This document shows positions 36,344 through 63,197 of a stretch of DNA of 64,000 nucleotides, one piece after another (position 1 is the first letter of the stretch; every line of letters begins with the position of its first letter). A model generated the notes under the pieces. It did not search any database, had not been told where the DNA came from, and was given only the letters and a program-made list of their open reading frames with translations. Source of the DNA: a bacterium (lineage in GTDB: Bacteria; Patescibacteriota; Minisyncoccia; Sungbacterales; SURF-37); the NCBI GenBank assembly GCA_030648055.1, contig JAUSHI010000007.1, forward strand, positions 49,621 to 113,620, in the 5' to 3' direction. A program made the translations under genes and the position numbers.

Positions 36344-37075
36344 TTAACGGCCTTGCTGAAACCTTTTTTTAATTAAAATTTGCTCTACTATAGCAAGTAA
36401 ACTCATGGTTGTCCAGTAAAGCGGCAAGGCCGACGGAAGCGAAAAAGACCACACCGCGATCAAAATAGGGAGAAAATATTTAGTCTGAAACATTAATATT
36501 TTTGAAAGATCCGGCTCTTTACTACTCCCGCTTTGGGGTGTGGGCACGGAAAGTTGCGGAATGAACCGTGCTTGAAAAAATTGTGAAACGCCGGCAAGAA
36601 TCGCCAGTGGAATACTGCTCTTGGCTATATCAATAAAACCAAAAGCGATTAAATTAAGTGCGGCTGGGGCGGCGACAAAATAATAAAGAACTCCAAATTC
36701 ACCGGACTTCAACCCGACCCAAAACACCCTATAAAGAGCAATAAGAATCGGTAGCTGAATAAGAATGGGCAAACAACCCGAAAAGGGATTCATTTTGTGC
36801 TCGGCATAAAGTGCCATTATGCGCTTGGTTTGCTCTTCTTTGTTGCCCTTAAATTCTTCTTGTATTGCTTTTAATTTGGGCTGTATGACTCTAAGTGCGG
36901 CCTGACTTTTAAAAGCTTTAATTGTCGCGGGAAAAAGAACAAGACGCACAAAAAAAGTGAGGATAACTATAGATATCCCAATATCGTGTATGGGCAAAAA
37001 AGAGTAAATTAAAATAAGGCCGTTAAAAAGCGGCCTATACAACACCTCATTATATAAAAAATAGACAATGTTCAT
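36344..37075 (-). CDS. yidC: Membrane protein insertase YidC (short form)
   Basis: 243 aa. Contains MNPFSGCLPILIQLPILIALY, typical of YidC/Oxa1. Confidence 0.85.
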   Translation of the reverse strand: MNIVYFLYNEVLYRPLFNGLILIYSFLPIHDIGISIVILTFFVRLVLFPATIKAFKSQAALRVIQPKLKAIQEEFKGNKEEQTKRIMALYAEHKMNPFSGCLPILIQLPILIALYRVFWVGLKSGEFGVLYYFVAAPAALNLIAFGFIDIAKSSIPLAILAGVSQFFQARFIPQLSVPTPQSGSSKEPDLSKILMFQTKYFLPILIAVWSFSLPSALPLYWTTMSLLAIVEQILIKKRFQQGR

Positions 37076-37782: not shown

Positions 37783-37916
37783 TATGGAGTTAACTTAAAG
37801 CGTCCCTTTTTGCGGCGTCTCGCAAGAACCCGCCGCCCGGGAGCAGTTCGTGTCCTTTTCAAAAAACCGTGAGTTCGGCTTCGTTTCCTCTTTTTTGGCT
37901 GATAAGTAATCGACAT
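37782..37916 (-). CDS. rpmH: 50S ribosomal protein L34
   Basis: Not in the ORF track because it is only 44 aa. [44 protein letters not shown]. Its stop overlaps the rnpA ATG (ATAATG). Confidence 0.85.
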
Positions 37917-37923
37917 AGTTTAA

Positions 37924-37965
37924 CTTCATGTCTGCCCATTATTAAGACTACGGGGAGACATGAAG
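37924..37965 (-). promoter_or_regulatory. Hairpin in the rpmH 5' leader
   Basis: CTTCATGTCT (37924-37933) pairs perfectly with AGACATGAAG (37956-37965). It ends 7 nt from the rpmH ATG. Confidence 0.5.
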
Positions 37966-38321
37966 AGAGTATACTTAATTTTTTGAATTAAATAAACCCC
38001 GTGCCTAATATGAGTATGGGAAAGAAGAAATAACCATTTAAAAAACAAAAGCCGAACAAAAGTATTCGCATTTTTTACTAACAGCATATAAACAGGTTCT
38101 TAAGTTAAATAGCTGTTTTGCTGTTTGTACCCTAACGTCATCTTATTGCTATACTACAAACATACTGTTTGAATTTAAAAATAAAATTGAAGTATAGACT
38201 TTATCCATAACCTTTTGCTACATGTCTAACGGCAGAAATAAGGGGACTGCAAGTAAATTGGTTTCCTTTCGCGAGGTGTGACACGAAACCGACCAAAACC
38301 GTTTAACGTGGGGGTTGCCAA
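37966..38321. other. rpmH-dnaA spacer, candidate oriC/dnaA promoter region
   Basis: Classic rpmH<>dnaA divergent arrangement and AT-rich sequence. Only one near-consensus DnaA box, TTATCCATA at 38201-38209. Confidence 0.35.
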
Positions 38322-39728
38322 ATGTCATACCAAAAAACTATGGAAAACCATGACTTATGGAGGGCGGCACTAGCCGAAATTGAGCTTGCGATTCCTCGCG
38401 CAAGTTTTGTCACGTGGTTTAAGGGGACTTCAATTGCGGAAGTTGCTAATGGATCCATAGTTATATCGGTACCTAACGGTTTTGCCAAAGAATGGCTTCA
38501 AAACAAATACAATAGATACATCGTTAGAGCATTGCGGGGTGTTGGGGGAGAAACTGTAAAAGAAATTTCTTACGTTATCGGCAAGACATCTGAGGAAACA
38601 TCATTAAAATCAAAAGACCGGACTAATCGGGCGGCTCTTGCCGTAAAAAATGAAATATCAGTTACCGCGGAAGAAGTACCGTTAAAAGATTTTCAAATTG
38701 ACCCAGAAACCGGTCTTAATCCGCGTTATACTTTTGACGGTTTTGTGGTCGGCTCTTTTAACGACCTCGCGCACGCCGCGGCACAGGCAATTATTAAAAA
38801 TCTTGGGTCCGCGTATAATCCGCTTTTTATTCATGGGGGGGTTGGCCTTGGAAAAACCCATTTAATACAAGCCATTGGCAATGAAGTATTAAAGCAAAAT
38901 CCGTCTAAAAAAGTAAAATACATGACCTCGGAAAAATATATGGGGGAGCTTGTTGAAGCACTCAACAACCAAACCATGAACCAATTTAAAGACCGCTATC
39001 GCAAATTTGACCTGCTTATAGTTGATGATATCCAGTTTTTGGGACAAACGGAGAAATTGCAAGTTGAATTTTTCCATACATTTAATACTCTATACCAATT
39101 AAACAAACAGCTTGTTATTTCTTCAGATAGGCCGCCTTCTGCTGTGCCGACGCTTGATGCCAGACTAAGATCGCGTTTTGAGGGCGGGATGCTCGCTGAT
39201 GTGGGGGAACCAGATTTTGAAACACGCCTGACGATTTTAAAAGCAAAAATAAGCCAAAAAGGGGTGTCCATACCGGAAGAATCATTAAAATACATAGCGC
39301 TTAACATTAAAAACAACATCAGAGAGCTAGAAGGAGCTCTTAATCGTTTAATTTTAAACTCCAAAATGAATTCGTTGCCGCTTGATCTCGAAGAAACCAA
39401 ACGAATTTTGGCTCAGGTTACTCAAGCGCCTAAAAGGTTTACTTCTCCCAAAAAAATAATCAAAACTGTTGCTGATTTTTATGAAATTCTTGAAAAAGAG
39501 CTTATTACCACAAGCCGCCGTAAAGAAATAGTTAAACCGCGACAAATTGCGATGTATCTTCTTAGGGACGAACTTAAATGCTCCTTTCCTTTTATAGGTG
39601 ATCGCCTTGGTAAAAAAGATCACACCACGGCAATCCATGCTTACAAAAAAATAGACGAAGAACTCAAAAAAAACACCGACCTTCAAAACGAATTAAAAAT
39701 TATAAAAGAAAAAATATATTCCGCATAA
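38322..39728 (+). CDS. dnaA: Chromosomal replication initiator protein DnaA
   Basis: Walker A GGVGLGKTHL and LIVDDIQF. C-terminal DNA-binding helix region ..DHTTAIHAYKKI. Confidence 0.95.
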   Translation: MSYQKTMENHDLWRAALAEIELAIPRASFVTWFKGTSIAEVANGSIVISVPNGFAKEWLQNKYNRYIVRALRGVGGETVKEISYVIGKTSEETSLKSKDRTNRAALAVKNEISVTAEEVPLKDFQIDPETGLNPRYTFDGFVVGSFNDLAHAAAQAIIKNLGSAYNPLFIHGGVGLGKTHLIQAIGNEVLKQNPSKKVKYMTSEKYMGELVEALNNQTMNQFKDRYRKFDLLIVDDIQFLGQTEKLQVEFFHTFNTLYQLNKQLVISSDRPPSAVPTLDARLRSRFEGGMLADVGEPDFETRLTILKAKISQKGVSIPEESLKYIALNIKNNIRELEGALNRLILNSKMNSLPLDLEETKRILAQVTQAPKRFTSPKKIIKTVADFYEILEKELITTSRRKEIVKPRQIAMYLLRDELKCSFPFIGDRLGKKDHTTAIHAYKKIDEELKKNTDLQNELKIIKEKIYSA

Positions 39729-39986
39729 ATAAACCGGTGCATTGGTTGTGCGTTTTATGTGCAGATCAATACCGGCGCGCGCTTAATTAAATGGGTACTG
39801 TTGCTTAACAAAAAAGCTGTGGTTTCCCAGCTCAGGATTTAATTCTAGGGTAATAATATAGTTTTCCCCTTTCTGCTAAACTATTTATTGATAGTTAACA
39901 GAACAAAAACCGCGATTTATTAAGTTCTCCCCTGTTTATTCGTCTATAATAAAAACAATAAGTTATATATAAATAGTATTATTGTT
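39729..39986. other. dnaA-dnaN spacer with an AT-rich tract (alternative oriC/DUE candidate)
   Basis: Ends in ATAATAAAAACAATAAGTTATATATAAATAGTATTATTGTT. Only degenerate DnaA-box-like words are present (TTATGTGCA, TGTGGTTTC). Confidence 0.3.
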
Positions 39987-41084
39987 ATGAAATTAGTTTG
40001 TACAAGAAACAACATACGTGACGCCTTTCAGCTTGCCGAACGCTTTGTTGGAAAGAATCTTACTCTTCCTATTCTTGGAAATATTTTATTGGAGGCTATC
40101 GGAAAAAGTGTCCGCTGTGTGGCAACAAATCTTGAAATTGGCGTTGAGGTTTCAGTACCATGTAAAATAATCAAAGAGGGCTCTGTAACGATGCCCGGGA
40201 AGCTTATAAATTCTCTCCTTTCATCCATTGACGACGAAATAATAACTTTTGAAGAAAAAGATTGCGCACTGACCGTAAAAACCGATTCCTCCCATTTTTT
40301 AATACAAGGAATTTCTTCCAAGGATTTTCCCATACTGCCTAAGTTTAAAAAAGGGAAAGAATTTTCTATTTCGTCGAAAGAGCTTAAAACAAGCCTTACT
40401 CAGGTGGCACCATCCGTGGCTTCGTCGGATTTTCGTCCAGAACTATCCGGAATTTTTTTTAAGAAAGAGCTAAAATCGCTTATTCTTGCCGCGACCGATT
40501 CTTTCCGGCTTGCTGAAAAAACAATAAATCTAAATTCGTCTCAAGGAGAGTCTTTTTCGTTTATTCTCCCCGCAAGAACGGCGCAAGAACTTTTGCGAAT
40601 TCTTTCCGATTCAGACGATGACGTTTTAGTGCGCGAAAGCGAGAATCAGGTTTTTTTTGAATTAAACGATACGCATATAGTTTCGCGTGTCGTTGACGGA
40701 AACTATCCGGATTATACGGCTATTATCCCGAAAGGATTTGACGCGCATGTTTCTGTTGCCCGCGACGAACTTGTAAAAAAAATAAAAGCGGCCAGCGTTC
40801 TGGCTTCAAAATTAAACGATGTGTCGCTTAGCTTTTCTTCCGGGGAATCATCGGTTGAAGCCATAAATTCAGAAGTTGGCAAGAGCAAAATTATTTTTTC
40901 CTCCAAAATAAAAGGAAAGGACTCGCGTGTTTCGTTTAATTTTCGTTATCTTTTGGACGGCCTTGAATCGCTATACGGAGAAGAACTTCTAATATCTTTA
41001 AACGGCGATTCTGCTCCGGCACTTATAACTGACCCTCAAAATTCTTCATTCCGATATGTAGTAATGCCAATTAGAAACGTGTAA
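39987..41084 (+). CDS. dnaN: DNA polymerase III beta sliding clamp
   Basis: 365 aa located after dnaA. N-terminal MKLVCTRNNIRDAFQLAERFVGKN and three-domain length are typical. Confidence 0.9.
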   Translation: MKLVCTRNNIRDAFQLAERFVGKNLTLPILGNILLEAIGKSVRCVATNLEIGVEVSVPCKIIKEGSVTMPGKLINSLLSSIDDEIITFEEKDCALTVKTDSSHFLIQGISSKDFPILPKFKKGKEFSISSKELKTSLTQVAPSVASSDFRPELSGIFFKKELKSLILAATDSFRLAEKTINLNSSQGESFSFILPARTAQELLRILSDSDDDVLVRESENQVFFELNDTHIVSRVVDGNYPDYTAIIPKGFDAHVSVARDELVKKIKAASVLASKLNDVSLSFSSGESSVEAINSEVGKSKIIFSSKIKGKDSRVSFNFRYLLDGLESLYGEELLISLNGDSAPALITDPQNSSFRYVVMPIRNV

Positions 41085-41097
41085 TACAGAAAGTTTT

Positions 41098-41127
41098 AAA
41101 AAAACATCCGCCGATGATGTTTTTTTT
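41098..41127. terminator. Bidirectional terminator between dnaN and the PBP gene
   Basis: AAAAAAACATC/GATGTTTTTTT stem with A and T runs on both sides. Confidence 0.65.
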
Positions 41128-56492: not shown

Positions 56493-56529
56493 GCCAGTTT
56501 GTAGGAATTAGCTGGTAGGAAAAACCTAA

Positions 56530-56553
56530 AGCCACAAGCCACAAGCCACAAGC
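56530..56553 (+). repeat. Heptanucleotide tandem repeat (AGCCACA) x3.4 just upstream of holA
   Basis: AGCCACAAGCCACAAGCCACAAGC, ending 2 nt before the ATG at 56556. Confidence 0.85.
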
Positions 56554-56555
56554 TA

Positions 56556-57467
56556 ATGATTCATCTTATTTACGGTCCGGATACTTTTCGGAGCCGCCGC
56601 TGTCTTGCTAATATTGTTGGTAATTTTGTAAAATCGGCTGGAGACGGAATTCCGGCTGTTTTTTATTTTGATGCCGAAGAAAGCGATTTTTCGCGTATTT
56701 TGCAAATGCATAACAGTTTGTCGCTTTTCAGTGCAAAAAGGATTATCGTGCTTGAGCGTGTTTTTTCCGCGAAGAAGAGTGTGTTTTCAAGCATTGAACA
56801 TTTGCTTAAAGAATGGGTGTCTTCTCCTGATACCACTTTTGTTTTTTGGGATGGCGATTGCGTGGAAAGCGCGGCCCTTTCGCGGGTTAAAAAATCCGCG
56901 CACGGAGTTGAAGAATTTTCTTTGCTTAATGGCGCATCTCTTGAAAAATGCGCTGAAGAAGAAATTAAAAGGCGCGATATTAAACTTTCCCAAGGACTTA
57001 AGGCGGCATTATTAATGAGTAGTGGTGGGGATCTTTGGAAGTTTTCCATGGACCTTGATAAATACGAGGTCGGCGGACTTTTTCAGGAAAGGAAAACCAT
57101 AAGTGAAGAGAAGATGTGGAATTTTACCGATGCATTTTTGGTAAGAAAGCGCTTGGCTCTCGCGTCTGCCGTCCGCCTTTTATCCGGTGGCGCGGACATG
57201 CTTTATCTTATGGGCGCTCTCAGCAAAACACTTCGCGCGACCCTTGCTCTTCGCGACGCGATTGAAAAGAAAATAGCCATTTCGGATGTAGCGCAGAAAC
57301 TTGAGTTAAAGCCATTTGTGGCGAATAAGCAGGCGCGCGTCGTTCGCGACATTAAGCCGGAAACTCTTGCCGGCAACTATCGTCTTTTGCTTAACACGGA
57401 TGAAAACATAAAAACCGGGAAACTCCCGGCGCCAATTGCGTTTCTTAGTCTTTTCGTAAAAAATTGA
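56556..57467 (+). CDS. holA: DNA polymerase III delta subunit-like protein
   Basis: 303 aa. N-terminal IHLIYGPDTF and length fit HolA; similarity is weak by eye. Confidence 0.55.
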   Translation: MIHLIYGPDTFRSRRCLANIVGNFVKSAGDGIPAVFYFDAEESDFSRILQMHNSLSLFSAKRIIVLERVFSAKKSVFSSIEHLLKEWVSSPDTTFVFWDGDCVESAALSRVKKSAHGVEEFSLLNGASLEKCAEEEIKRRDIKLSQGLKAALLMSSGGDLWKFSMDLDKYEVGGLFQERKTISEEKMWNFTDAFLVRKRLALASAVRLLSGGADMLYLMGALSKTLRATLALRDAIEKKIAISDVAQKLELKPFVANKQARVVRDIKPETLAGNYRLLLNTDENIKTGKLPAPIAFLSLFVKN

Positions 57468-57588
57468 TTGTTAACAATTAATTAATAATCGTTGTAGAGG
57501 TGTTAACAATTCCTTTTCGGTTTTTTATTGGTATATTTATCCGCCCTAAAACAATTTTTGCAAAAATGTTCGGGCGACCCCGCGGGGT

Positions 57589-57858
57589 TTAGCCGCCTTT
57601 TGCTTTGCGAATAGATTTCATCAGCCGTGATTTTTTTCTGGCGGCGGCATTTTTTTTGATTACATTTTTTTTAGCCGCTTTATCCAGCGCTTTATAGGCC
57701 TTCGGTACGAGAGCCTCGGCCTCCTTTATTTTTTTGTTCATTATAAGTTTTTGGATTTCTTTAAGGACATCTTTAAAAGCCTCTTTTTGTTGGAGGTTCC
57801 GTTTTTGTCGTCGTAATGATTGGCGGAGCGCTTTTTTAGCTGATTGAGTTATTGGCAT
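57589..57858 (-). CDS. rpsT: 30S ribosomal protein S20
   Basis: MPITQSAKKALRQSLRRQKRN. Confidence 0.9.
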   Translation of the reverse strand: MPITQSAKKALRQSLRRQKRNLQQKEAFKDVLKEIQKLIMNKKIKEAEALVPKAYKALDKAAKKNVIKKNAAARKKSRLMKSIRKAKGG

Positions 57859-57902
57859 ACTTGATTCAGGATAGCAAAAATGGACATTTTGTCAAATAGA
57901 TA

Positions 57903-59876
57903 TTATTTATTCTTATACATTTTTATTCGGTCGCGTATTCTTGCCGCCAGCTCAAAATCCATCGCCTTAGCCGCCTTTTTCATTTCGTGTTCAAGGGCAG
58001 AGATAATCTCCCGCGTAGGCGCGTTTGGTGGCGCAAATACGTCTTCTTCTTTTTTCGGGGCGAGTTCTTCTAAAAGTGATTTCCTGATGGCTTTTTCTAT
58101 TTTTGTCGGTGTCAGTCCGTGTTCGCGGTTATATTCTTCCTGAATTTTACGGCGTCTCTTTGTTTCTTCCATCGCGCGTTTCATGGAGTCAGTAATGGTA
58201 TCGGCGTAAAGAATTACTTCGCCGTCAATGTGGCGCGCGGCGCGGCCTATAATTTGCAGAAGAGTGGTTTTGTTTCGCAGAAAACCCTCTTTGTCCGCGT
58301 CTAAAATAGCAATGAACGAGACCTCGGGCAGATCCAGTCCTTCCCGCAAAAGATTGATGCCGACGATTACATCGTGTTCTCCGGTGCGGAGTTTTTTTAG
58401 GACATCCGAGCGTTCAAGTGTTTTTATCTCAGAATGCAGGTATTCGGCTTTTATGCCCGCCTCTTTAAGGTATTCGGCAATGTCTTCCGCGAGGCGTTTG
58501 GTAAGCGCTAAAACAAGCGAGCGCTCTTTTTTCGCTATTCGCTTTTTAATTTCGGTGATCACGCTTTTTATCTGTCTTCTTGTCGGGCGGATTTCTATTT
58601 TGGGGTCAAGCACGCCAGTCGGCCTGATTAGTTGTTCTGCTATATATCCTTTTGATTTTTCAAGTTCATAATCATTAGGCGTGGCCGAGACATAAATACG
58701 CTGGTTTATTTTTTTATCAAATTCCGTAAATTTTAACGGGCGGTTATCAATTGCCGACGGCAGACGGAAGCCGTAGTCAACCAAAGTTTGTTTTCGCGCA
58801 AAATCTCCGTTGTACATTCCGCGGATTTGGGGAAGCGAGACGTGCGACTCATCAAGAAATACCAAAAAATCTTTTCCAAAGCGGTGGCGGTAGTAGTCAA
58901 TCAGGGTGAAGGGTGGCGAGCCTGGCTCACGGAAGGAGAGCTGGCGCGAATAATTTTCAATGCCGTTGGTGTATCCGGTTTCGGTCAGCATTTCCAAATC
59001 AAAGTTTGTGCGTTGTTCCAGCCGCTCGGCCTCTAACAATCGCCCGGCTTCCTTAAGTATTTTTAGTCGCCTTTTTAACTCTTGTTTTATATTCTCTATG
59101 GCAAGTTTAAGTTTTTGGCGGGGCGTGACAAAGTGTTTTGCTGGAAATATTTTTACAGAATATAGAATTTGGAATCTAGAATCTAGAGCGCGATGTTGCT
59201 GTGCGCGCTTTTTGAGTGAAGTAATAGTATTGTTTTCCAGCTCAACGGTAATGGTTTCTTCTCCCGACGGCAGATAAATTTCAACCGCGTCTCCGCGCGC
59301 CCTGAAGTGCCCCTGCCGCGGGTCAAAATCGTTTTTGGCGTATTGTAAAAGTATTAGATAGCGGAGTAGGTCCCTTCTGGTCATTTTTTCACCTATTTTC
59401 AGTTCAAGCGCTATTTTTTCGTATTCTTCCGGGTCGCCAATGCCGTAAATGCAGGAAACGGACGCCACGATTATTACATCATCTCTTGTTAGAAGCGAGG
59501 CGGTTGAGGCATGTCTCAATGCGTCGATGATTTCGTTAATTTTAGCGTCCTTTTCTATGTAGGTATCGCTCTGCGGAATATAGGCCTCGGGCTGGTAGTA
59601 ATCGTAATAAGAAACGAAATAATGTACCGCATTTTCGGGGAAGAATTCTTTAAATTCCTGATAGAGTTGGGCGGCCAGAGTTTTATTGTGCGAAATAATG
59701 AGGGCCGGTTTTTGTGCGCGTTCAATTACATTCGCCATAGTGAATGTTTTTCCCGATCCCGTGACCCCCAAAAGTGTTTGATGCGTTACGCCGGAACGCA
59801 AATTTACCGCCAACTGGTCAATGGCTTTTGGCTGATCGCCGGTTGGTTTAAATAGCGAGGCGAGTTTAAAATCCAA
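57903..59876 (-). CDS. uvrB: Excinuclease ABC subunit B
   Basis: [13 protein letters not shown], and a C-terminal UVR motif [13 protein letters not shown]. Confidence 0.95.
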
Positions 59877-59899
59877 AGTCGTGTTATAATTGGAATAAG

Positions 59900-60487
59900 A
59901 TGATAAGTTTTCTTGCAGGCAAAATTGAATTTAAAGGAGAAAAATTTGCCGTGATAAACGTCGGTGGCGTGGGTTACCGTGTTTTTGCTTCAGCCGACAC
60001 GCTTAAAAAAATACCAGAAAAAGGTGAGAGTGTCAAACTTTGGACGAATTTGTATGTTCGGGAAGATGCGCTTGAGCTTTACGGATTTATCCATCAGTCG
60101 GAGCTTGAACTTTTTGAAACGCTTATTCATGTCTCGGGCATCGGCCCCAAGACCGGGCTCGGTGTTATGGGTGTTGCTCCGGTTGATATATTAAGGCGCG
60201 CTATTGCTTCCGGGGATACCTCATATCTTACCCGTGTTTCTGGTATTGGGCGCAAAATTGCGGAAAAAATAATTTTGGAACTTAAAGAAAAAATGGCCGG
60301 CAAGGGAATTACGGTTGAAGCCCCGGAACTTAAAGAAGAGGCCGACGCGCTTGAGGCACTGGTCTCGCTCGGCTATTCGCAAAGAGAAGCGCGCGAGGCC
60401 CTGCAGGAAGTGTCCCGCGATATTAAGAGTCCGGAGAAGCGGATAAAAGAGGCCTTAAAAAAATTAGGAGGAGGAATTAGGAGATAA
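59900..60487 (+). CDS. ruvA: Holliday junction DNA helicase RuvA
   Basis: [18 protein letters not shown].., HhH motif VSGIGPKTG, and domain [15 protein letters not shown]. Confidence 0.9.
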
Positions 60488-60501
60488 AAAAGCGTTCCTT
60501 T

Positions 60502-60960
60502 TTAGGAACGGGTTTTTTTGAGAGAAATATCGGTTTGGGGGAAAATGCGCATTATGCCTTCTTTGTAGAGCATTTCAATATCGTAGGTATAAAGCGGCAG
60601 CCGTGTTTTGAAATAAAACGTGCCGCCACCGGAAAGATCCAAAGGGATATCAGCTCTCATTACGGCCCAGGCGCTTTTTTTGAGGCGAATTTTCACCGGC
60701 CGATGCCCTTTGCCACGCAAAAATTCTTTACACTCTTTTCGTTGATGTTTTTTCCATCGTATTACGCCGGCACTCTTTGCTTTCGGGCCACTCAAAACAT
60801 ATTCAGGATTTGCCAGCCACACCTCTTCTACGATGCCGTTTATGTAGGCCACGGAGGAAATTGATTCGCGATGTTTTAGTTGCACGAGATCACCCGGAAG
60901 CAGGCGGAATTGGTCTAGGCGGATTTGTTTGGATTTCGGCACTTCATCCTTGTAATTCAC
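60502..60960 (-). CDS. Hypothetical protein
   Basis: 152-aa ORF. No motif recognised. Confidence 0.4.
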   Translation of the reverse strand: MNYKDEVPKSKQIRLDQFRLLPGDLVQLKHRESISSVAYINGIVEEVWLANPEYVLSGPKAKSAGVIRWKKHQRKECKEFLRGKGHRPVKIRLKKSAWAVMRADIPLDLSGGGTFYFKTRLPLYTYDIEMLYKEGIMRIFPQTDISLKKTRS

Positions 60961-60994
60961 TAATTCCTCCAGTAAGTTATTTTAAGGTGCTTCT

Positions 60995-61900
60995 TTGATT
61001 GAAATTAACACCACAAGAAACGAAATGCAACAATCTTTTCTTCAATCCCAAGAATGGGAAAAATTGCAGGAGCAGCTTGGCAGAAAAATCTGGCGGATAT
61101 GCGGGTATCTTGTTATCCGGCATGACTTGGCTGGCGGATTTAATTACCTTTATGCTCCGCGCCTGCCCGAGCTTGAAGACGAGTTTTTACAAAAAGTCCG
61201 CGAAGTAGCATTTAAGGAAAAGTCCTTCTTTCTGAAAGTTGACCCTATAAAAAATTTCCAATTTCCAATTTCCAATTTCCAATTTCACGAATCGCACGGT
61301 TTGCAGCCGAGGAAAACGATAATTATTGATCTTGCGAAATCGGAAGAAGAATTGCTCGGCGAAATGCATCCGAAAACCCGCTATAACATACGCCTCGCCG
61401 AGAAGCGCGGAGTCAATGTCGCCAAATATCACCCATTTATAGCAAAAGACATTATGGAAACCTTCGGGGAGCTTATGGAAGAGACGGCACGTCGTGATAA
61501 ATTTCGTCTTCATCCGGCAGAGTATTATCATAAGCTTTTAAAAATCCGAGGAACGCGTTTTGAAAATGCTTTGTTTCTCGCCGAATACAGGGGCAGAGCG
61601 CTTGCGGCCGCCTTGGTCAATTATTATGAGAAGAGCGTGACTTATTTGCACGGCGCCTCTTCCAGTTTTCATCGCGACATGATGGCCCCGCATCTCGTGC
61701 ATTGGCGCGCGATTCAGGACGCTAAAAAAAACGGGTTTTTGTCGTACGACCTCTGGGGGATTGATGAAAAAAAATGGCCGGGTATAAGCAGGTTCAAAAC
61801 CGGCTTCGGCGGAAATATTGTTGAATATCCGCAATCAATTGATATTATTTTTCGGCCGGTGTGGTACAGGATATATAAGTTAGCCCGTAAGGTGTTTTAA
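60995..61900 (+). CDS. FemAB/FemX-family peptidoglycan interpeptide-bridge aminoacyltransferase-like protein
   Basis: FLQSQEWEKLQ, YLHGASS and HLVHWRAIQDAKKNGFLSYDLWGI. The track start is TTG 60995; ATG 61025 is an alternative. Confidence 0.65.
   Translation: MIEINTTRNEMQQSFLQSQEWEKLQEQLGRKIWRICGYLVIRHDLAGGFNYLYAPRLPELEDEFLQKVREVAFKEKSFFLKVDPIKNFQFPISNFQFHESHGLQPRKTIIIDLAKSEEELLGEMHPKTRYNIRLAEKRGVNVAKYHPFIAKDIMETFGELMEETARRDKFRLHPAEYYHKLLKIRGTRFENALFLAEYRGRALAAALVNYYEKSVTYLHGASSSFHRDMMAPHLVHWRAIQDAKKNGFLSYDLWGIDEKKWPGISRFKTGFGGNIVEYPQSIDIIFRPVWYRIYKLARKVF
61253..61287 (+). repeat. Heptanucleotide tandem repeat (AATTTCC) x4 plus AATTTCA inside the FemX-like CDS
   Basis: Four perfect units at 61253-61280 and a fifth unit with one change. 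Encodes NFQFPISNFQF. Confidence 0.9.
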
Positions 61901-61904
61901 AGAA

Positions 61905-63197
61905 ATGGAATTTATACTTCGTGCCGTCAAAAAAATTATTCCCCCATTCCTTTTTCGTGTTTTACAGCCGGTGTATCATTTTGCGCTGGCGTTTTTGGCG
62001 GCACTCATTTTCGGGTTTCCTTCTAAAAAGATAAAAGTGATTGGCGTGACCGGCACGGATGGAAAATCAAGCGCGGTTGAGATTTTGCACGAAATTCTCC
62101 GCAACGCTGGTTTTTCCGTTGCCTCAGCCTCTTCTCTTCGTTTCAAAATAAACAGCGAGGAAGAGGTGAATTTGAAGAAAATGACTATGCCCGGGCGTTT
62201 CTTCACCCAGAGATTTCTTTTGAGAGCGGTAAAAGCCGGCACCGATTTCGCGATACTTGAAGTGACCTCTGAGGGTATCAGGCAGTTTCGCCATAAATTC
62301 ATTGAGTTTGATGGCGCCCTGCTTACCAATCTCACGCCGGAGCATATTGAATCGCACGGTAGTTTTGAAAATTATCGCGAGGCAAAAGAAAAACTTTTTT
62401 CCTCGCTTCCGGGGGGCGGGTTTGCCGTCATAAACCGCGACGACCCGTCGTGGAAGCATTTTTCAGACGCGACAAGGGCCCAGAAAATTTTTTATAGCAA
62501 AGAAGCGATAAGCGAAAACGGAACTTTTCATCGGGTGAGCGGCGTAGAGCGGAAAGGCAGGATTTCTTTTGAAATTGAGGGGGTTCGTTTTGAGTCAAAT
62601 CTTTTTGGCGCGTTTAACGTGATGAATATTCTCGCGGCAGTGGCCATGGCTCATGCTTTCGGCGTTTCCTTTATGAGAAGTGCTGACGCGTTGAAAAAAA
62701 TTTCCGGCGTTCCCGGCCGGCTGGAAATTGTCGCGGAAAAATCGTTTCGCGTCGTGGTTGATTACGCGCATACGCCCAACGCCCTCAAAAGTGTTTATGG
62801 CGTTCTTAAAGACGCGTTTCCCTCTTCAAAACTTATCTGTGTGCTGGGGGCGGCCGGTGGGGGGCGGGATAAATGGAAGCGGTCGGAATTCGGAAAAATA
62901 GCCGGAGAATTTTGCGGCGAAATTATTTTGACCAACGAAGACCCGTACGATGAATCGCCCCGTGAAATTGTAGACCAAATCGCTTCCAGCATTCAGCATT
63001 CAGCATTCAGCATTCAGCATTTAAGAAGGATATTGGACAGGCGAATGGCAATTCACGAAGCGTTGCATCTTGCGAAACCCGATGACACGGTTATTATCAC
63101 CGGTAAGGGTGCCGAGCAATGGATTATGGGTCCGGCAAACATAAAAATTCCATGGGATGACAGGAGGGTTGTAAGAGAGGAATTGGGAAATTTATAG
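61905..63197 (+). CDS. murE: Mur ligase, MurE-like
   Basis: P-loop GVTGTDGKSS, DYAHTP and GAAGGGRDKWKR. Lies next to the femX-like gene. Confidence 0.8.
   Translation: MEFILRAVKKIIPPFLFRVLQPVYHFALAFLAALIFGFPSKKIKVIGVTGTDGKSSAVEILHEILRNAGFSVASASSLRFKINSEEEVNLKKMTMPGRFFTQRFLLRAVKAGTDFAILEVTSEGIRQFRHKFIEFDGALLTNLTPEHIESHGSFENYREAKEKLFSSLPGGGFAVINRDDPSWKHFSDATRAQKIFYSKEAISENGTFHRVSGVERKGRISFEIEGVRFESNLFGAFNVMNILAAVAMAHAFGVSFMRSADALKKISGVPGRLEIVAEKSFRVVVDYAHTPNALKSVYGVLKDAFPSSKLICVLGAAGGGRDKWKRSEFGKIAGEFCGEIILTNEDPYDESPREIVDQIASSIQHSAFSIQHLRRILDRRMAIHEALHLAKPDDTVIITGKGAEQWIMGPANIKIPWDDRRVVREELGNL
62988..63021 (+). repeat. Heptanucleotide tandem repeat (AGCATTC) x4 plus AGCATT inside the MurE-like CDS
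   Basis: Four perfect units at 62988-63015 plus a partial unit. Encodes SIQHSAFSIQH. Confidence 0.9.

What the first reader, a model, noticed from the sequence alone, without database searches (positions are those of the whole stretch)
62988..63021. Second heptanucleotide array (AGCATTC x4 plus a partial unit) inside the MurE-like ligase
It has the same design as the FemX-like array (four perfect units plus a partial one, 34 nt, in frame, encoding SIQHSAFSIQH). It lies in the variable segment before the conserved C-terminal DRR..AI region. Two neighbouring peptidoglycan-precursor genes carrying independent heptamer arrays with different unit sequences argues for a process that generates or selects such arrays, rather than shared ancestry.
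Basis: seen in the sequence. Interest (0 to 1): 0.55.

Follow-up and report, generated by a model that had tools for sequence, protein, structure and literature searches.

The report
In-frame heptamer repeat in MurE gene
A perfect five-copy 7-base repeat sits in frame in a surface loop of a cell-wall enzyme gene of an uncultured ultra-small (CPR) bacterium; it is one of many such repeats in this lineage, most likely made by DNA-copying slippage, and looks like a tolerated 7-amino-acid insertion rather than a genetic switch.

Summary
Window 62987-63021 is (CAGCATT)x5.0, 35 nt with no mismatch, in frame in a 430-aa MurE-type ligase. It encodes residues 361-373 (SSIQHSAFSIQHL). Chance predicts no such array.

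It is not special to peptidoglycan genes:
- The only perfect short tandem arrays in the 64 kb are three heptamer arrays. A fourth, decayed one lies in uvrB.
- In 1.27 Mb from 99 related CPR loci, 32 of 46 perfect arrays of period 5-9 have period 7. That is 25/Mb, against 2/Mb in Bacteroidota.
- None exceeds 5.0 units. The long arrays are almost all coding.
- The two variable MurE loops are recurrent sites, with different units in different lineages.
- Loop lengths are bimodal, the upper mode 6-7 residues above the lower, and the long loops carry 7-aa-periodic peptides.

Best reading: slippage added three units (21 nt, 7 codons) to a two-unit seed, and selection kept an in-frame, stop-free product in a permissive loop. 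A change of one unit truncates the enzyme with no alternative C-terminus.

I found no copy-number polymorphism, but this species has been assembled only once. This is a new member of a known kind: heptanucleotide repeats are the commonest long SSR class in prokaryotes. The 7-aa loop steps in CPR proteins are a modest new twist.

The parts
62987..63021 (+). The finding: perfect heptanucleotide array (CAGCATT)x5.0, 35 nt, in frame, encoding residues 361-373 (SSIQHSAFSIQHL) of the MurE-type ligase.
   Evidence: The AF2 model places it at the end of helix 352-364, loop 365-371 and the start of strand 372-375, with block pLDDT 70.
61905..63197 (+). Host gene: MurE-type Mur ligase, 430 aa (middle and C-terminal domains). 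It is identical to NCBI MDO8560925.1 from a 117,725-bp MAG contig.
61253..61286 (+). Sister array (AATTTCC)x4.86, 34 nt, in frame in the FemAB-family gene. It encodes NFQFPISNFQF in a loop that varies in length among homologues.
60995..61900 (+). FemAB-family (FemX-like) gene, 301 aa, immediately upstream of the ligase.
56529..56553 (+). Third perfect heptamer array (AAGCCAC)x3.57. It is non-coding and ends 2 nt before the ATG of holA (DNA polymerase III delta, 56556-57467).
59157..59187 (-). Decayed heptamer array (TCTAGAT-like, 83% matches) in frame in uvrB (57903-59876, minus strand). The syntenic locus L162 has a perfect (AGGTTGT)x4.7 array in the same UvrB loop.

Best explanation
The array is a young, selectively tolerated by-product of a lineage-wide mutational bias towards 7-nt tandem expansion. 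It is replication slippage, or an equivalent strand misalignment during repair synthesis. A chance two-unit seed (CAGCATTCAGCATT, encoding ..ASSIQHLRR..) gained three more units, which is 21 nt or 7 codons. One or two added units would shift the frame and truncate an indispensable enzyme. So inside genes, selection lets through only net additions of three units whose unit has no stop codon in any frame, and only in loops that tolerate 7 extra residues. The result is a 7-aa lengthening of a surface loop in the C-terminal domain. It has no designed function. It leaves a latent frameshift hotspot that will either decay by point substitution or be lost. Shown: the array, its frame, its loop position, the lineage-wide period-7 excess, the 6-7-residue loop-length steps, and the consequences of unit changes. 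Inferred: slippage as the mechanism, the two-unit ancestor, and neutrality.
For: 1. Period specificity. In 1.27 Mb from 99 related CPR loci, perfect arrays of at least 3 copies number 32 for period 7, against 6, 4, 4 and 0 for periods 5, 6, 8 and 9. That is 25/Mb, against 2/Mb in Bacteroidota of similar G+C. Random sequence gives none.
2. Frame filter. Arrays of 28-35 nt are 16 coding to 1 non-coding. Arrays of 17-20 nt are 39 to 22, so short steps survive mainly outside genes. All 29 tabulated units (28 coding, plus the one upstream of holA) are stop-free in all three frames.
3. Loop-length steps. MurE loop 1 has length modes at 9 and at 15-16 aa; loop 2 at 17 and at 22/24 aa. Signals with 7-aa periodicity occur in 0/37 short against 25/60 mid-length loops for loop 1, and in 3/47 against 23/40 for loop 2. 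The window's loop 2 is 21 aa, or 14 + 7. The two-unit version gives QIASSIQHLRRILDRR, matching the shortest homologues.
4. Independent origins. Different units occupy the same loops in different lineages: AACCTAC x4.86 in loop 1 of the closest relative (L166), and AATTTCC, AATTTCA, AAATCCG and CAATTAC in loop 2. FemX and UvrB loops are also recurrent sites.
5. All stages of decay exist.
6. Polarity expected of serial backward slippage. The 5' flank is never related to the unit, whereas 6 arrays continue 3' after 1-2 mismatches.
7. Permissive position. The array spans the end of a helix, a loop and the start of a strand, at the lowest confidence in that part of the model. The homologous segment varies in length in solved MurE structures.
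8. No nucleic-acid structure and no Rfam hit.
9. Literature. Heptanucleotide repeats are the most abundant long SSR class in many prokaryotes. The proposed cause is that about 7 nt interact with the polymerase active site (Mrazek 2007, as summarised in PMC4692102 and PMC4679880).
Against: No direct evidence of slippage at this locus: there are no reads, and no second assembly of the species. Going from 2 to 5 units in an essential gene needs a single multi-unit event, or a short-lived frameshifted intermediate. Several details do not follow from simple slippage:
- No array exceeds 5.0 units, even outside genes.
- Ten of 34 coding arrays have a stop-containing consensus unit whose in-frame stop is removed by a substitution. 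In three of them that is the only mismatch.
- Some arrays of 3.x copies (L088, L097) leave less than one unit of seed when 21 or 24 nt are removed.
- Units are more biased towards AATTTYC-like words (11/29) than A+T richness plus stop avoidance predicts (10-17%).
- The one strain-level presence/absence difference I found is a 60-nt patch replacement, not a unit change.
The CPR sample is centred on murE, which holds 16 of the 32 arrays, so genome-wide densities are approximate.
Confidence: 0.65

Rival explanations
1. Contingency locus. The array is kept because unit gain or loss switches the ligase (and the FemX-like gene) off and on in part of the population. That would give an episymbiont heterogeneity in cell-wall synthesis.
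For: A 7-nt unit is not a multiple of 3, so every +1/-1 change is a frameshift. Modelled products are 370 or 395 aa for MurE and 106-113 aa for FemX, all lacking conserved C-terminal parts. Five perfect units are more slippage-prone than unique sequence. Heptanucleotide repeats do drive phase variation elsewhere, for example the 7-bp repeats of H. influenzae hmw1A/hmw2A (PMC8262952, PMC10127715).
Against: The host genes are cytoplasmic housekeeping enzymes, not surface or host-interaction genes. The array lies at codon 361 of 430, whereas phase-variable SSRs are enriched near N-termini (PMC3315296). No alternative open frame lies downstream. Arrays also occur in uvrB and many unrelated genes. 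Arrays never exceed 5 units and are found at all stages of decay, which points to frozen rather than maintained tracts. No in-frame unit-number variants appear in ten multi-member strain clusters; the only loop difference found there is the patch replacement. A decayed array is identical in strains that differ at 8 of 1287 nt.
Confidence: 0.07
2. Imported loop. The array arose elsewhere, in another lineage or allele. It was then pasted into this gene by short-patch homologous recombination between the conserved blocks that flank the loop.
For: Two groundwater strains that are 99.5% identical over 2.2 kb (L161, L162) differ only in a patch of about 60 nt at MurE loop 1. One carries a G+C-rich array-less version (ATLRSSHSR). 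The other carries an A+T-rich decayed (AACCAAA)x4.7 array together with diverged flanking codons. Identical array-derived peptides, such as NLQPTTYNLQP and NSKFQIPNSK, recur in homologues only 54-65% identical to the window protein.
Against: The window array has the same G+C (43%) as the genome (45%). Its flanks align normally with homologues. The unit is found in none of 166 loci. Import only moves the question of origin elsewhere, and is compatible with the best explanation.
Confidence: 0.12
3. Dedicated insertion process. A lineage-specific enzyme activity, such as a specialised polymerase, primase or reverse-transcriptase-like activity, writes short bursts of about three heptamer units at breaks or stalled forks. 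This would not be ordinary slippage.
For: There is a hard ceiling of 35 nt. 'Three identical units plus a hybrid fourth' patterns occur, with strict 5'-to-3' polarity. Some arrays have units that are not present in the reconstructed ancestor (L097, L088). The bias in unit composition exceeds the simple expectation.
Against: No candidate enzyme or template was found. Units differ at every locus: four arrays and four units in this window. The ceiling follows from a roughly five-fold drop per added unit (22: 4: 1 in non-coding DNA) combined with the multiple-of-three filter. The hybrid fourth unit can be derived from slippage on an imperfect seed.
Confidence: 0.08
4. Selected function. The seven extra residues, or the DNA/RNA repeat itself as a binding site, are maintained because they are useful.
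For: Arrays recur at the same loops. Two arrays sit directly upstream of start codons: holA here, and a pilM-like gene in L112. This recalls the TAACTGA repeats upstream of start codons in Beggiatoaceae (PMC4679880).
Against: The peptide sequence at the loop differs entirely between lineages and decays freely. Many homologues have the short loop. The repeat has no predicted structure (z-scores 0.14 and 0.75) and no Rfam match.
Confidence: 0.05
5. Assembly or sequencing artefact.
For: This species is seen in a single assembly.
Against: A 35-nt repeat is shorter than a read. The reading frame is intact. Equivalent arrays occur in assemblies from NCBI, JGI, ENA and Logan, made with different pipelines.
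Confidence: 0.02

Closest known systems
Long simple sequence repeats of prokaryotes, with heptanucleotide units the most abundant class (Mrazek, Guo & Shah 2007, as summarised in PMC4692102 and PMC4679880)
   Same: Perfect head-to-tail copies of a 7-nt unit, far longer than chance. Period 7 is strongly preferred over 5, 6, 8 and 9. Units differ between loci. Polymerase slippage is the proposed origin.
   Different: That survey reported that repeats inside genes mostly have units that are multiples of three. Here the long heptamer arrays are almost all inside genes (16:1), are capped at 5 units, and appear as net three-unit additions that lengthen loops by 7 residues. The lineage (CPR/Patescibacteria) does not appear in any heptamer-repeat paper in the searched library.
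Dispersed heptamer repeat families: cyanobacterial STRR, Xanthomonas/Nostoc GGGAATC-type repeats (PMC4692102), Beggiatoaceae TAACTGA repeats (PMC4679880)
   Same: Tandem heptamers of 2-6 or more copies scattered over a genome, with no established mechanism. Some lie just upstream of start codons, as the holA array does here. When inside ORFs they encode 7-aa repeats.
   Different: Those families reuse one unit, or a few, at tens to hundreds of mostly intergenic sites. Here every array has its own unit (CAGCATT is unique), and most long arrays are coding.
Contingency (phase-variable) loci, e.g. the 7-bp repeats of H. influenzae hmw1A/hmw2A and tetranucleotide repeats in surface-structure genes (PMC8262952, PMC2651432)
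   Same: An SSR whose unit is not a multiple of three, so a unit change alters the frame or expression.
   Different: Those tracts are long and variable between and within strains. They sit in promoters or 5' ends of surface or host-interaction genes. This one is short, lies at 84% of a cytoplasmic housekeeping gene, and shows no variation in the little comparative data available.
MurE (UDP-MurNAc-L-Ala-D-Glu: diamino-acid ligase), the host protein
   Same: The best solved relatives are MurE enzymes (E 1e-47 to 1e-38; 8f5d, 4bub, 2wtz, 4c12, 1e8c). The middle and C-terminal domains are present.
   Different: No Pfam N-terminal Mur ligase domain was detected. A helical N-terminus is predicted instead. 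The motif at the position of E. coli DNPR reads EDPYDE (comparison with E. coli from my own knowledge). The amino-acid substrate was not determined.

Membership tests
Heptanucleotide long SSR (slippage-type microsatellite) | Uninterrupted head-to-tail copies of a short unit, longer than expected by chance | tested here: met
   5.0 perfect copies, 35 nt. None arose in 100 random sequences.
Heptanucleotide long SSR (slippage-type microsatellite) | Genome- or lineage-wide excess of the same period with varied units | tested here: met
   Period 7 gives 32 arrays, against 0-6 for periods 5, 6, 8 and 9, in 1.27 Mb of related CPR DNA. That is 25/Mb, against 2/Mb in Bacteroidota.
Heptanucleotide long SSR (slippage-type microsatellite) | Unit-number differences between close relatives | tested here: inconclusive
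   No second assembly of this species exists. Exact look-ups of the 2-, 4-, 6- and 8-unit products found nothing. Ten homologue clusters showed no unit-number variants. One presence/absence case is a patch replacement.
Contingency locus / phase-variable gene | A repeat whose unit change shifts the reading frame or alters expression | tested here: met
   A change of +1 or -1 unit gives truncated products of 395 or 370 aa.
Contingency locus / phase-variable gene | Tract polymorphic within or between strains | tested here: inconclusive
   no variation was seen, but no same-species data are available. Reads cannot be tested with these tools.
Contingency locus / phase-variable gene | Located in the promoter or 5' part of a dispensable surface, host-interaction or restriction-modification gene | tested here: not met
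   Codon 361 of 430 in a cytoplasmic Mur ligase. N-terminal enrichment of phase-variable SSRs is described in PMC3315296.
Dispersed single-unit heptamer families (STRR, GGGAATC, TAACTGA) | The same unit reused at many loci of one genome | tested here: not met
   CAGCATT x2 occurs only at this site in the window and in none of 166 loci. The four arrays in the window have four different units.
Dispersed single-unit heptamer families (STRR, GGGAATC, TAACTGA) | Predominantly intergenic location | tested here: not met
   Arrays of 28-35 nt are 16 coding to 1 non-coding.
MurE ligase (host gene) | Mur ligase middle and C-terminal domains, with closest solved relatives being MurE | tested here: met
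MurE ligase (host gene) | N-terminal UDP-MurNAc-binding domain, and a DNPR / D(D,N)P(N,A) specificity motif | tested here: inconclusive
   No Pfam N-terminal domain hit. The motif position reads EDPYDE. Substrate specificity cannot be tested with these tools.

The most novel reading that the evidence does not exclude
The arrays are not passive scars. They would be the output of a lineage-specific, directional burst process, capped at about five units, that stays hypermutable. Essential cytoplasmic genes such as murE and femX would then be switched off by frameshift in a fraction of cells of an episymbiotic CPR bacterium. The same process would be the main engine of loop-length evolution in its proteome, in steps of 7 residues.
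Probability: 0.07. Interest if true: 0.7.

Novelty: new member of a known kind. Interest (0 to 1): 0.35.

Why it matters
Taken alone, the array is an ordinary microsatellite. The context is the useful part. In this group of CPR/Patescibacteria, heptamer expansion appears to be the dominant source of short tandem arrays, and it visibly steps up the length of permissive loops in conserved enzymes (MurE, FemX, UvrB) by 6-7 residues at a time.

Three things follow:
- It gives a simple mechanistic origin for part of the many insertions seen in CPR proteins.
- It gives a sequence signature (7-aa-periodic peptides rich in N, S, K, F, Q, I, P) that annotators and structure predictors can recognise as non-functional filler.
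- It provides a natural data set for asking why 7 nt is the favoured slippage register in bacteria, a question left open since 2007.

It also warns against reading every non-triplet repeat in a gene as a phase-variation switch.

Tried and rejected
- Same-species comparison failed. The exact protein is in one NCBI MAG contig only. The metagenome and genome scans returned relatives of at most 55% identity. Close pairs among the fetched loci (L128/L129, L133/L135, L122/L158) carry no perfect array of 21 nt or more.
- Exact look-ups of the modelled MurE products (2, 4, 6 and 8 units) and FemX products (1, 3, 5 and 7 units) found nothing. This is uninformative, because the species was assembled only once.
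- Most length differences inside ten 90% clusters turned out to be start-codon calls, not loop changes.
- L108 and L112 arrays with the same unit at similar coordinates are not orthologous.
- A hairpin or other structured element was rejected: folding is no better than shuffles on either strand, and there are no Rfam hits in 55-64 kb.
- A dispersed repeat family or a template-and-copy system (DGR-like) was rejected: there is no second copy of the unit anywhere.
- An accumulation of transposon target-site duplications was rejected. No element is present, every site has a different unit, and that model predicts single-unit steps that would be lethal in genes.
- A replication-terminus or origin-proximal hotspot was rejected as the cause of the clustering. 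oriC is at about 38 kb, 18-25 kb away. The same genes carry arrays in other genomes.
- A 'seed plus exactly 21 nt' rule does not fit every array.
- The original Mrazek 2007 paper could not be opened. It is cited only through two papers that summarise it.
Full report
**1. The observation**

The window reads ...caaatcgcttc CAGCATT CAGCATT CAGCATT CAGCATT CAGCATT taagaagg.... Tandem Repeats Finder reports 62987-63021, period 7, 5.0 copies, 100% matches. The tract lies in ORF 61905-63197(+). That ORF encodes a 430-aa protein with Mur ligase middle and C-terminal domains. Its best solved relatives are MurE enzymes, with E-values of 1e-47 to 1e-38.

The array is in frame and encodes SIQHSAFSIQH at residues 362-372. 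An exhaustive scan of the 64 kb for perfect arrays of period 2-15 with at least 3 copies finds only three, all of period 7:
- 56529-56553, (AAGCCAC)x3.6
- 61253-61286, (AATTTCC)x4.9
- 62987-63021, the finding

One hundred Markov-1 random sequences gave none. A fourth, decayed heptamer array lies in uvrB at 59157-59187. The only correction is that the perfect run starts at 62987 and is exactly five units.

**2. Organism and relatives**

The protein is identical to one NCBI MAG protein (MDO8560925.1, contig of 117,725 bp). The next relatives are 64-65% identical and are labelled Candidatus Sungbacteria/Sungiibacteriota, that is CPR/Patescibacteria. I fetched 80 loci from species-representative genomes and 80 from metagenomes. 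None belongs to the same species.

**3. Position in the protein**

In an alignment of 31 homologues the array falls in one of two length-variable segments of the C-terminal domain. It sits just before the conserved ILDRR..AI block. An AlphaFold2 model (mean pLDDT 88.4) places residues 361-373 at the end of helix 352-364, a loop at 365-371, and the start of strand 372-375. Its 10-residue block (361-370) averages pLDDT 70, tied for the lowest in the C-terminal domain. In the alignments to the two best solved matches (a MurE fusion protein and a plant MurE-like protein) this segment differs in length.

**4. The phenomenon is lineage-wide**

The homologues' two variable loops are full of 7-residue-periodic peptides, such as NLQPTTYNLQP, NPKSKIQNPK, NSKFQIPNSK and TLNPKPETLNP. 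At the DNA level these are heptamer arrays with other units:
- (AACCTAC)x4.86, perfect, in loop 1 of the closest relative (L166)
- AATTTCC, AATTTCA, AAATCCG and CAATTAC in loop 2
- TCAAGAC, AAATTCA and ACAAAAT in loop 1

| Group | DNA | Period 5 | Period 6 | Period 7 | Period 8 | Period 9 | Period 7 per Mb |
|---|---|---|---|---|---|---|---|
| Related CPR loci (99) | 1.27 Mb | 6 | 4 | 32 | 4 | 0 | 25 |
| Bacteroidota (30) | 0.51 Mb | 1 | 0 | 1 | 0 | 0 | 2 |

Counts are perfect arrays of at least 3 copies. Half of the 32 CPR arrays lie in murE itself, on which the sample is centred. The rest are in many other genes and in spacers. FemX has a recurrent array site at the same loop as in the window (L081). 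So does UvrB (L162). This explains why the window's arrays cluster in 56.5-63 kb. The cluster is not a regional hotspot, because oriC (dnaA and dnaN with the GC-skew minimum) lies at about 38 kb.

**5. Evidence for 'slippage plus frame filter'**

- Arrays of 28-35 nt are 16 coding to 1 non-coding. Arrays of 17-20 nt are 39 to 22. Short steps therefore survive mostly outside genes. Inside genes one sees the rarer net addition of three units. In non-coding DNA the three length classes fall off as 22: 4: 1. That also accounts for the absence of arrays longer than five units without any special cap.
- MurE loop lengths are bimodal:

| Loop | Lower mode | Upper mode | 7-aa periodicity, short loops | 7-aa periodicity, mid-length loops |
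|---|---|---|---|---|
| Loop 1 | 9 aa | 15-16 aa | 0/37 | 25/60 |
| Loop 2 | 17 aa | 22 and 24 aa | 3/47 | 23/40 |

- The window's loop 2 is 21 aa. Removing three units gives a 14-aa loop, QIASSIQHLRRI, which matches the shortest homologues.
- All 29 tabulated array units (28 coding, plus the one upstream of holA) are stop-free in all three frames. Their A/T-rich, G-poor composition is largely what A+T richness plus stop avoidance predicts, because only C can separate a T run from an A run without creating TAA or TGA.
- Arrays show polarity. The 5' flank (coding sense) is never related to the unit. Six arrays continue 3' after one or two mismatches, often as 'three identical units plus a hybrid fourth'. 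This can be derived from serial backward slippage on an imperfect seed.
- Every stage of decay is seen, including within one clade that shares a loop-2 array.

**6. What a unit change would do**

With 4 units the ligase stops right after the array, at the TAA, giving 370 aa. With 6 units it gains a 19-residue out-of-frame tail and ends at 395 aa. Both lose the conserved DRR..AI, TGKG and WDD blocks. Only 2, 5 and 8 units are in frame. FemX with one unit more or less ends at 106-113 aa. No long alternative frame lies downstream, so nothing suggests a designed alternative C-terminus.

**7. Is it a switch?**

- I found no unit-number variants in ten multi-member strain clusters of homologues. Most of their length differences are start-codon calls.
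- A decayed array is identical in strains that differ at 8 of 1287 positions.
- The one presence/absence polymorphism is a 60-nt patch. Two strains 99.5% identical over 2.2 kb carry either a G+C-rich short loop or an A+T-rich decayed (AACCAAA)x4.7 array with diverged flanking codons. This looks like short-patch recombination, not slippage.
- Phase-variable repeats are typically long, near the N-terminus, and in surface genes (PMC3315296; PMC8262952). This one is short, lies at 84% of a cytoplasmic housekeeping gene, and has counterparts in uvrB and many other genes.

I rate the switch reading at about 7%. It cannot be excluded without reads.

**8. Other readings tested**

The repeat has no predicted structure on either strand, and there are no Rfam families in 55-64 kb. 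The unit occurs nowhere else. This argues against a dispersed repeat family of the STRR or TAACTGA type, and against a template-and-copy system. An artefact is unlikely: the tract is shorter than a read, and equivalent arrays occur in assemblies from four sources.

**9. Unresolved details**

- Ten of 34 coding arrays have a consensus unit that contains a stop. Every in-frame stop is removed by a substitution, and in three arrays that is the only mismatch. This is too frequent for coincident random mutation. Decay of stop-free arrays (AACCTAC to AACCTAA/T) with some concerted evolution is possible but unproven.
- Some arrays of 3.x copies leave less than one unit of seed when 21 or 24 nt are removed.
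- AATTTYC-like units are 2-3 times commoner than the simple expectation.

These keep a small probability on a more specific mechanism.

**10. Comparison with what is known**

Two held papers summarise Mrazek et al. 2007. Heptanucleotide repeats are the most abundant class of long SSRs in many prokaryotes. The suggested reason is that about 7 nt interact with the polymerase active site. Repeats inside genes mostly have units that are multiples of three (PMC4692102, PMC4679880). The present array belongs to that known kind.

It differs from the single-unit dispersed families (STRR, GGGAATC, TAACTGA) in having a private unit and a coding position. It differs from contingency loci in gene type, position and length. 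I found no paper in the searched library describing heptamer arrays in CPR bacteria, or 7-aa stepwise loop growth.

**Verdict**

This is a real, non-random feature. It is an ordinary heptanucleotide microsatellite, frozen in frame in a permissive loop, and a new member of a known kind. The lineage-wide pattern around it is moderately interesting.

Noticed in passing
window 37800-41100: The probable chromosomal replication origin lies here. dnaA is at 38322-39728 and dnaN at 39987-41084, with yidC (36344-37075, minus strand) upstream. This coincides with the cumulative GC-skew minimum and a G+C dip to 39%.
   Followed up: partly
window 56529-56553; L112 20957-20985: Heptamer arrays sit directly upstream of start codons. 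(AAGCCAC)x3.6 ends 2 nt before the holA ATG, where a ribosome-binding site would be expected. In L112, (GAAAATT)x4 on the gene strand ends 7 nt before the ATG of a 363-aa gene I guessed to be pilM-like (not checked against any family library). This recalls the TAACTGA repeats upstream of start codons in Beggiatoaceae.
   Followed up: partly
L161 1785-1845 versus L162 3885-3965: Two Hainich groundwater strains, 99.5% identical over 2.2 kb, differ in a patch of about 60 nt at MurE loop 1. One has a G+C-rich short loop. The other has an A+T-rich decayed heptamer array with diverged flanking codons. This suggests short-patch recombination that swaps loops between lineages.
   Followed up: partly
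L113 3465-3566; homologue loops in P0032, P0060, P0009, P0085, P0090: A second kind of loop insert: G+C-rich segments of about 33 nt encoding peptides such as TPAGGFPVG, SAFAEASAGRQ or SARGGSAFGGQ. They are sometimes inserted inside a decayed heptamer array. They look like a small G+C-rich, possibly palindromic, element that recurs in CPR protein loops.
   Followed up: no
L120 10872-10904, L121 12042-12074, L136 1880-1913, L128 3949-3982, L144 8224-8264, L127 1455-1492: In these coding arrays the consensus unit contains a stop codon (AACCTAA, AAAATGA, AAATCTT, CTAAACC). The single unit where the stop would be in frame carries a substitution, which is often the only mismatch in the array.
   Followed up: partly
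CPR loci, e.g. L141 10825-10861, L132 11347-11378, L004 14459-14487, L086 20384-20419: Arrays show polarity. In coding-strand orientation the divergent or hybrid unit is at the 3' end in 6 arrays. The 5' flank is never within 2 mismatches of the unit (0 of 27).
   Followed up: partly
window 61905-63197: The MurE-type ligase has no detectable N-terminal Mur ligase domain. Its helical N-terminus looks hydrophobic by eye. It has EDPYDE where E. coli MurE has the DNPR specificity motif. Together with the adjacent FemAB-family gene, this hints at a non-DAP peptide stem.
   Followed up: no
L075 8587-13072 (Chloroflexota MAG): Four perfect heptamer arrays occur within 4.5 kb of a non-CPR genome, including the telomere-like (AATCCCT)x4.9 in non-coding DNA. 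The period-7 preference is therefore not confined to CPR.
   Followed up: no
window 56500-63050; L162 1-4000: All four period-7 arrays of the window lie within 6.5 kb (rough chance of about 0.004 if placed at random). The syntenic uvrB-ruvA-femX-murE block of L162 carries arrays in the same three genes, with the uvrB array in the same loop.
   Followed up: yes
L097 10888-10914; L132 10828-10855: Period-8 arrays (AGCTTACC x3.4, AACTCATC x3.5) occupy MurE loop 1 in two lineages, again as a three-unit (24-nt, 8-aa) addition. The multiple-of-three filter therefore also acts on a rarer slippage register.
   Followed up: partly
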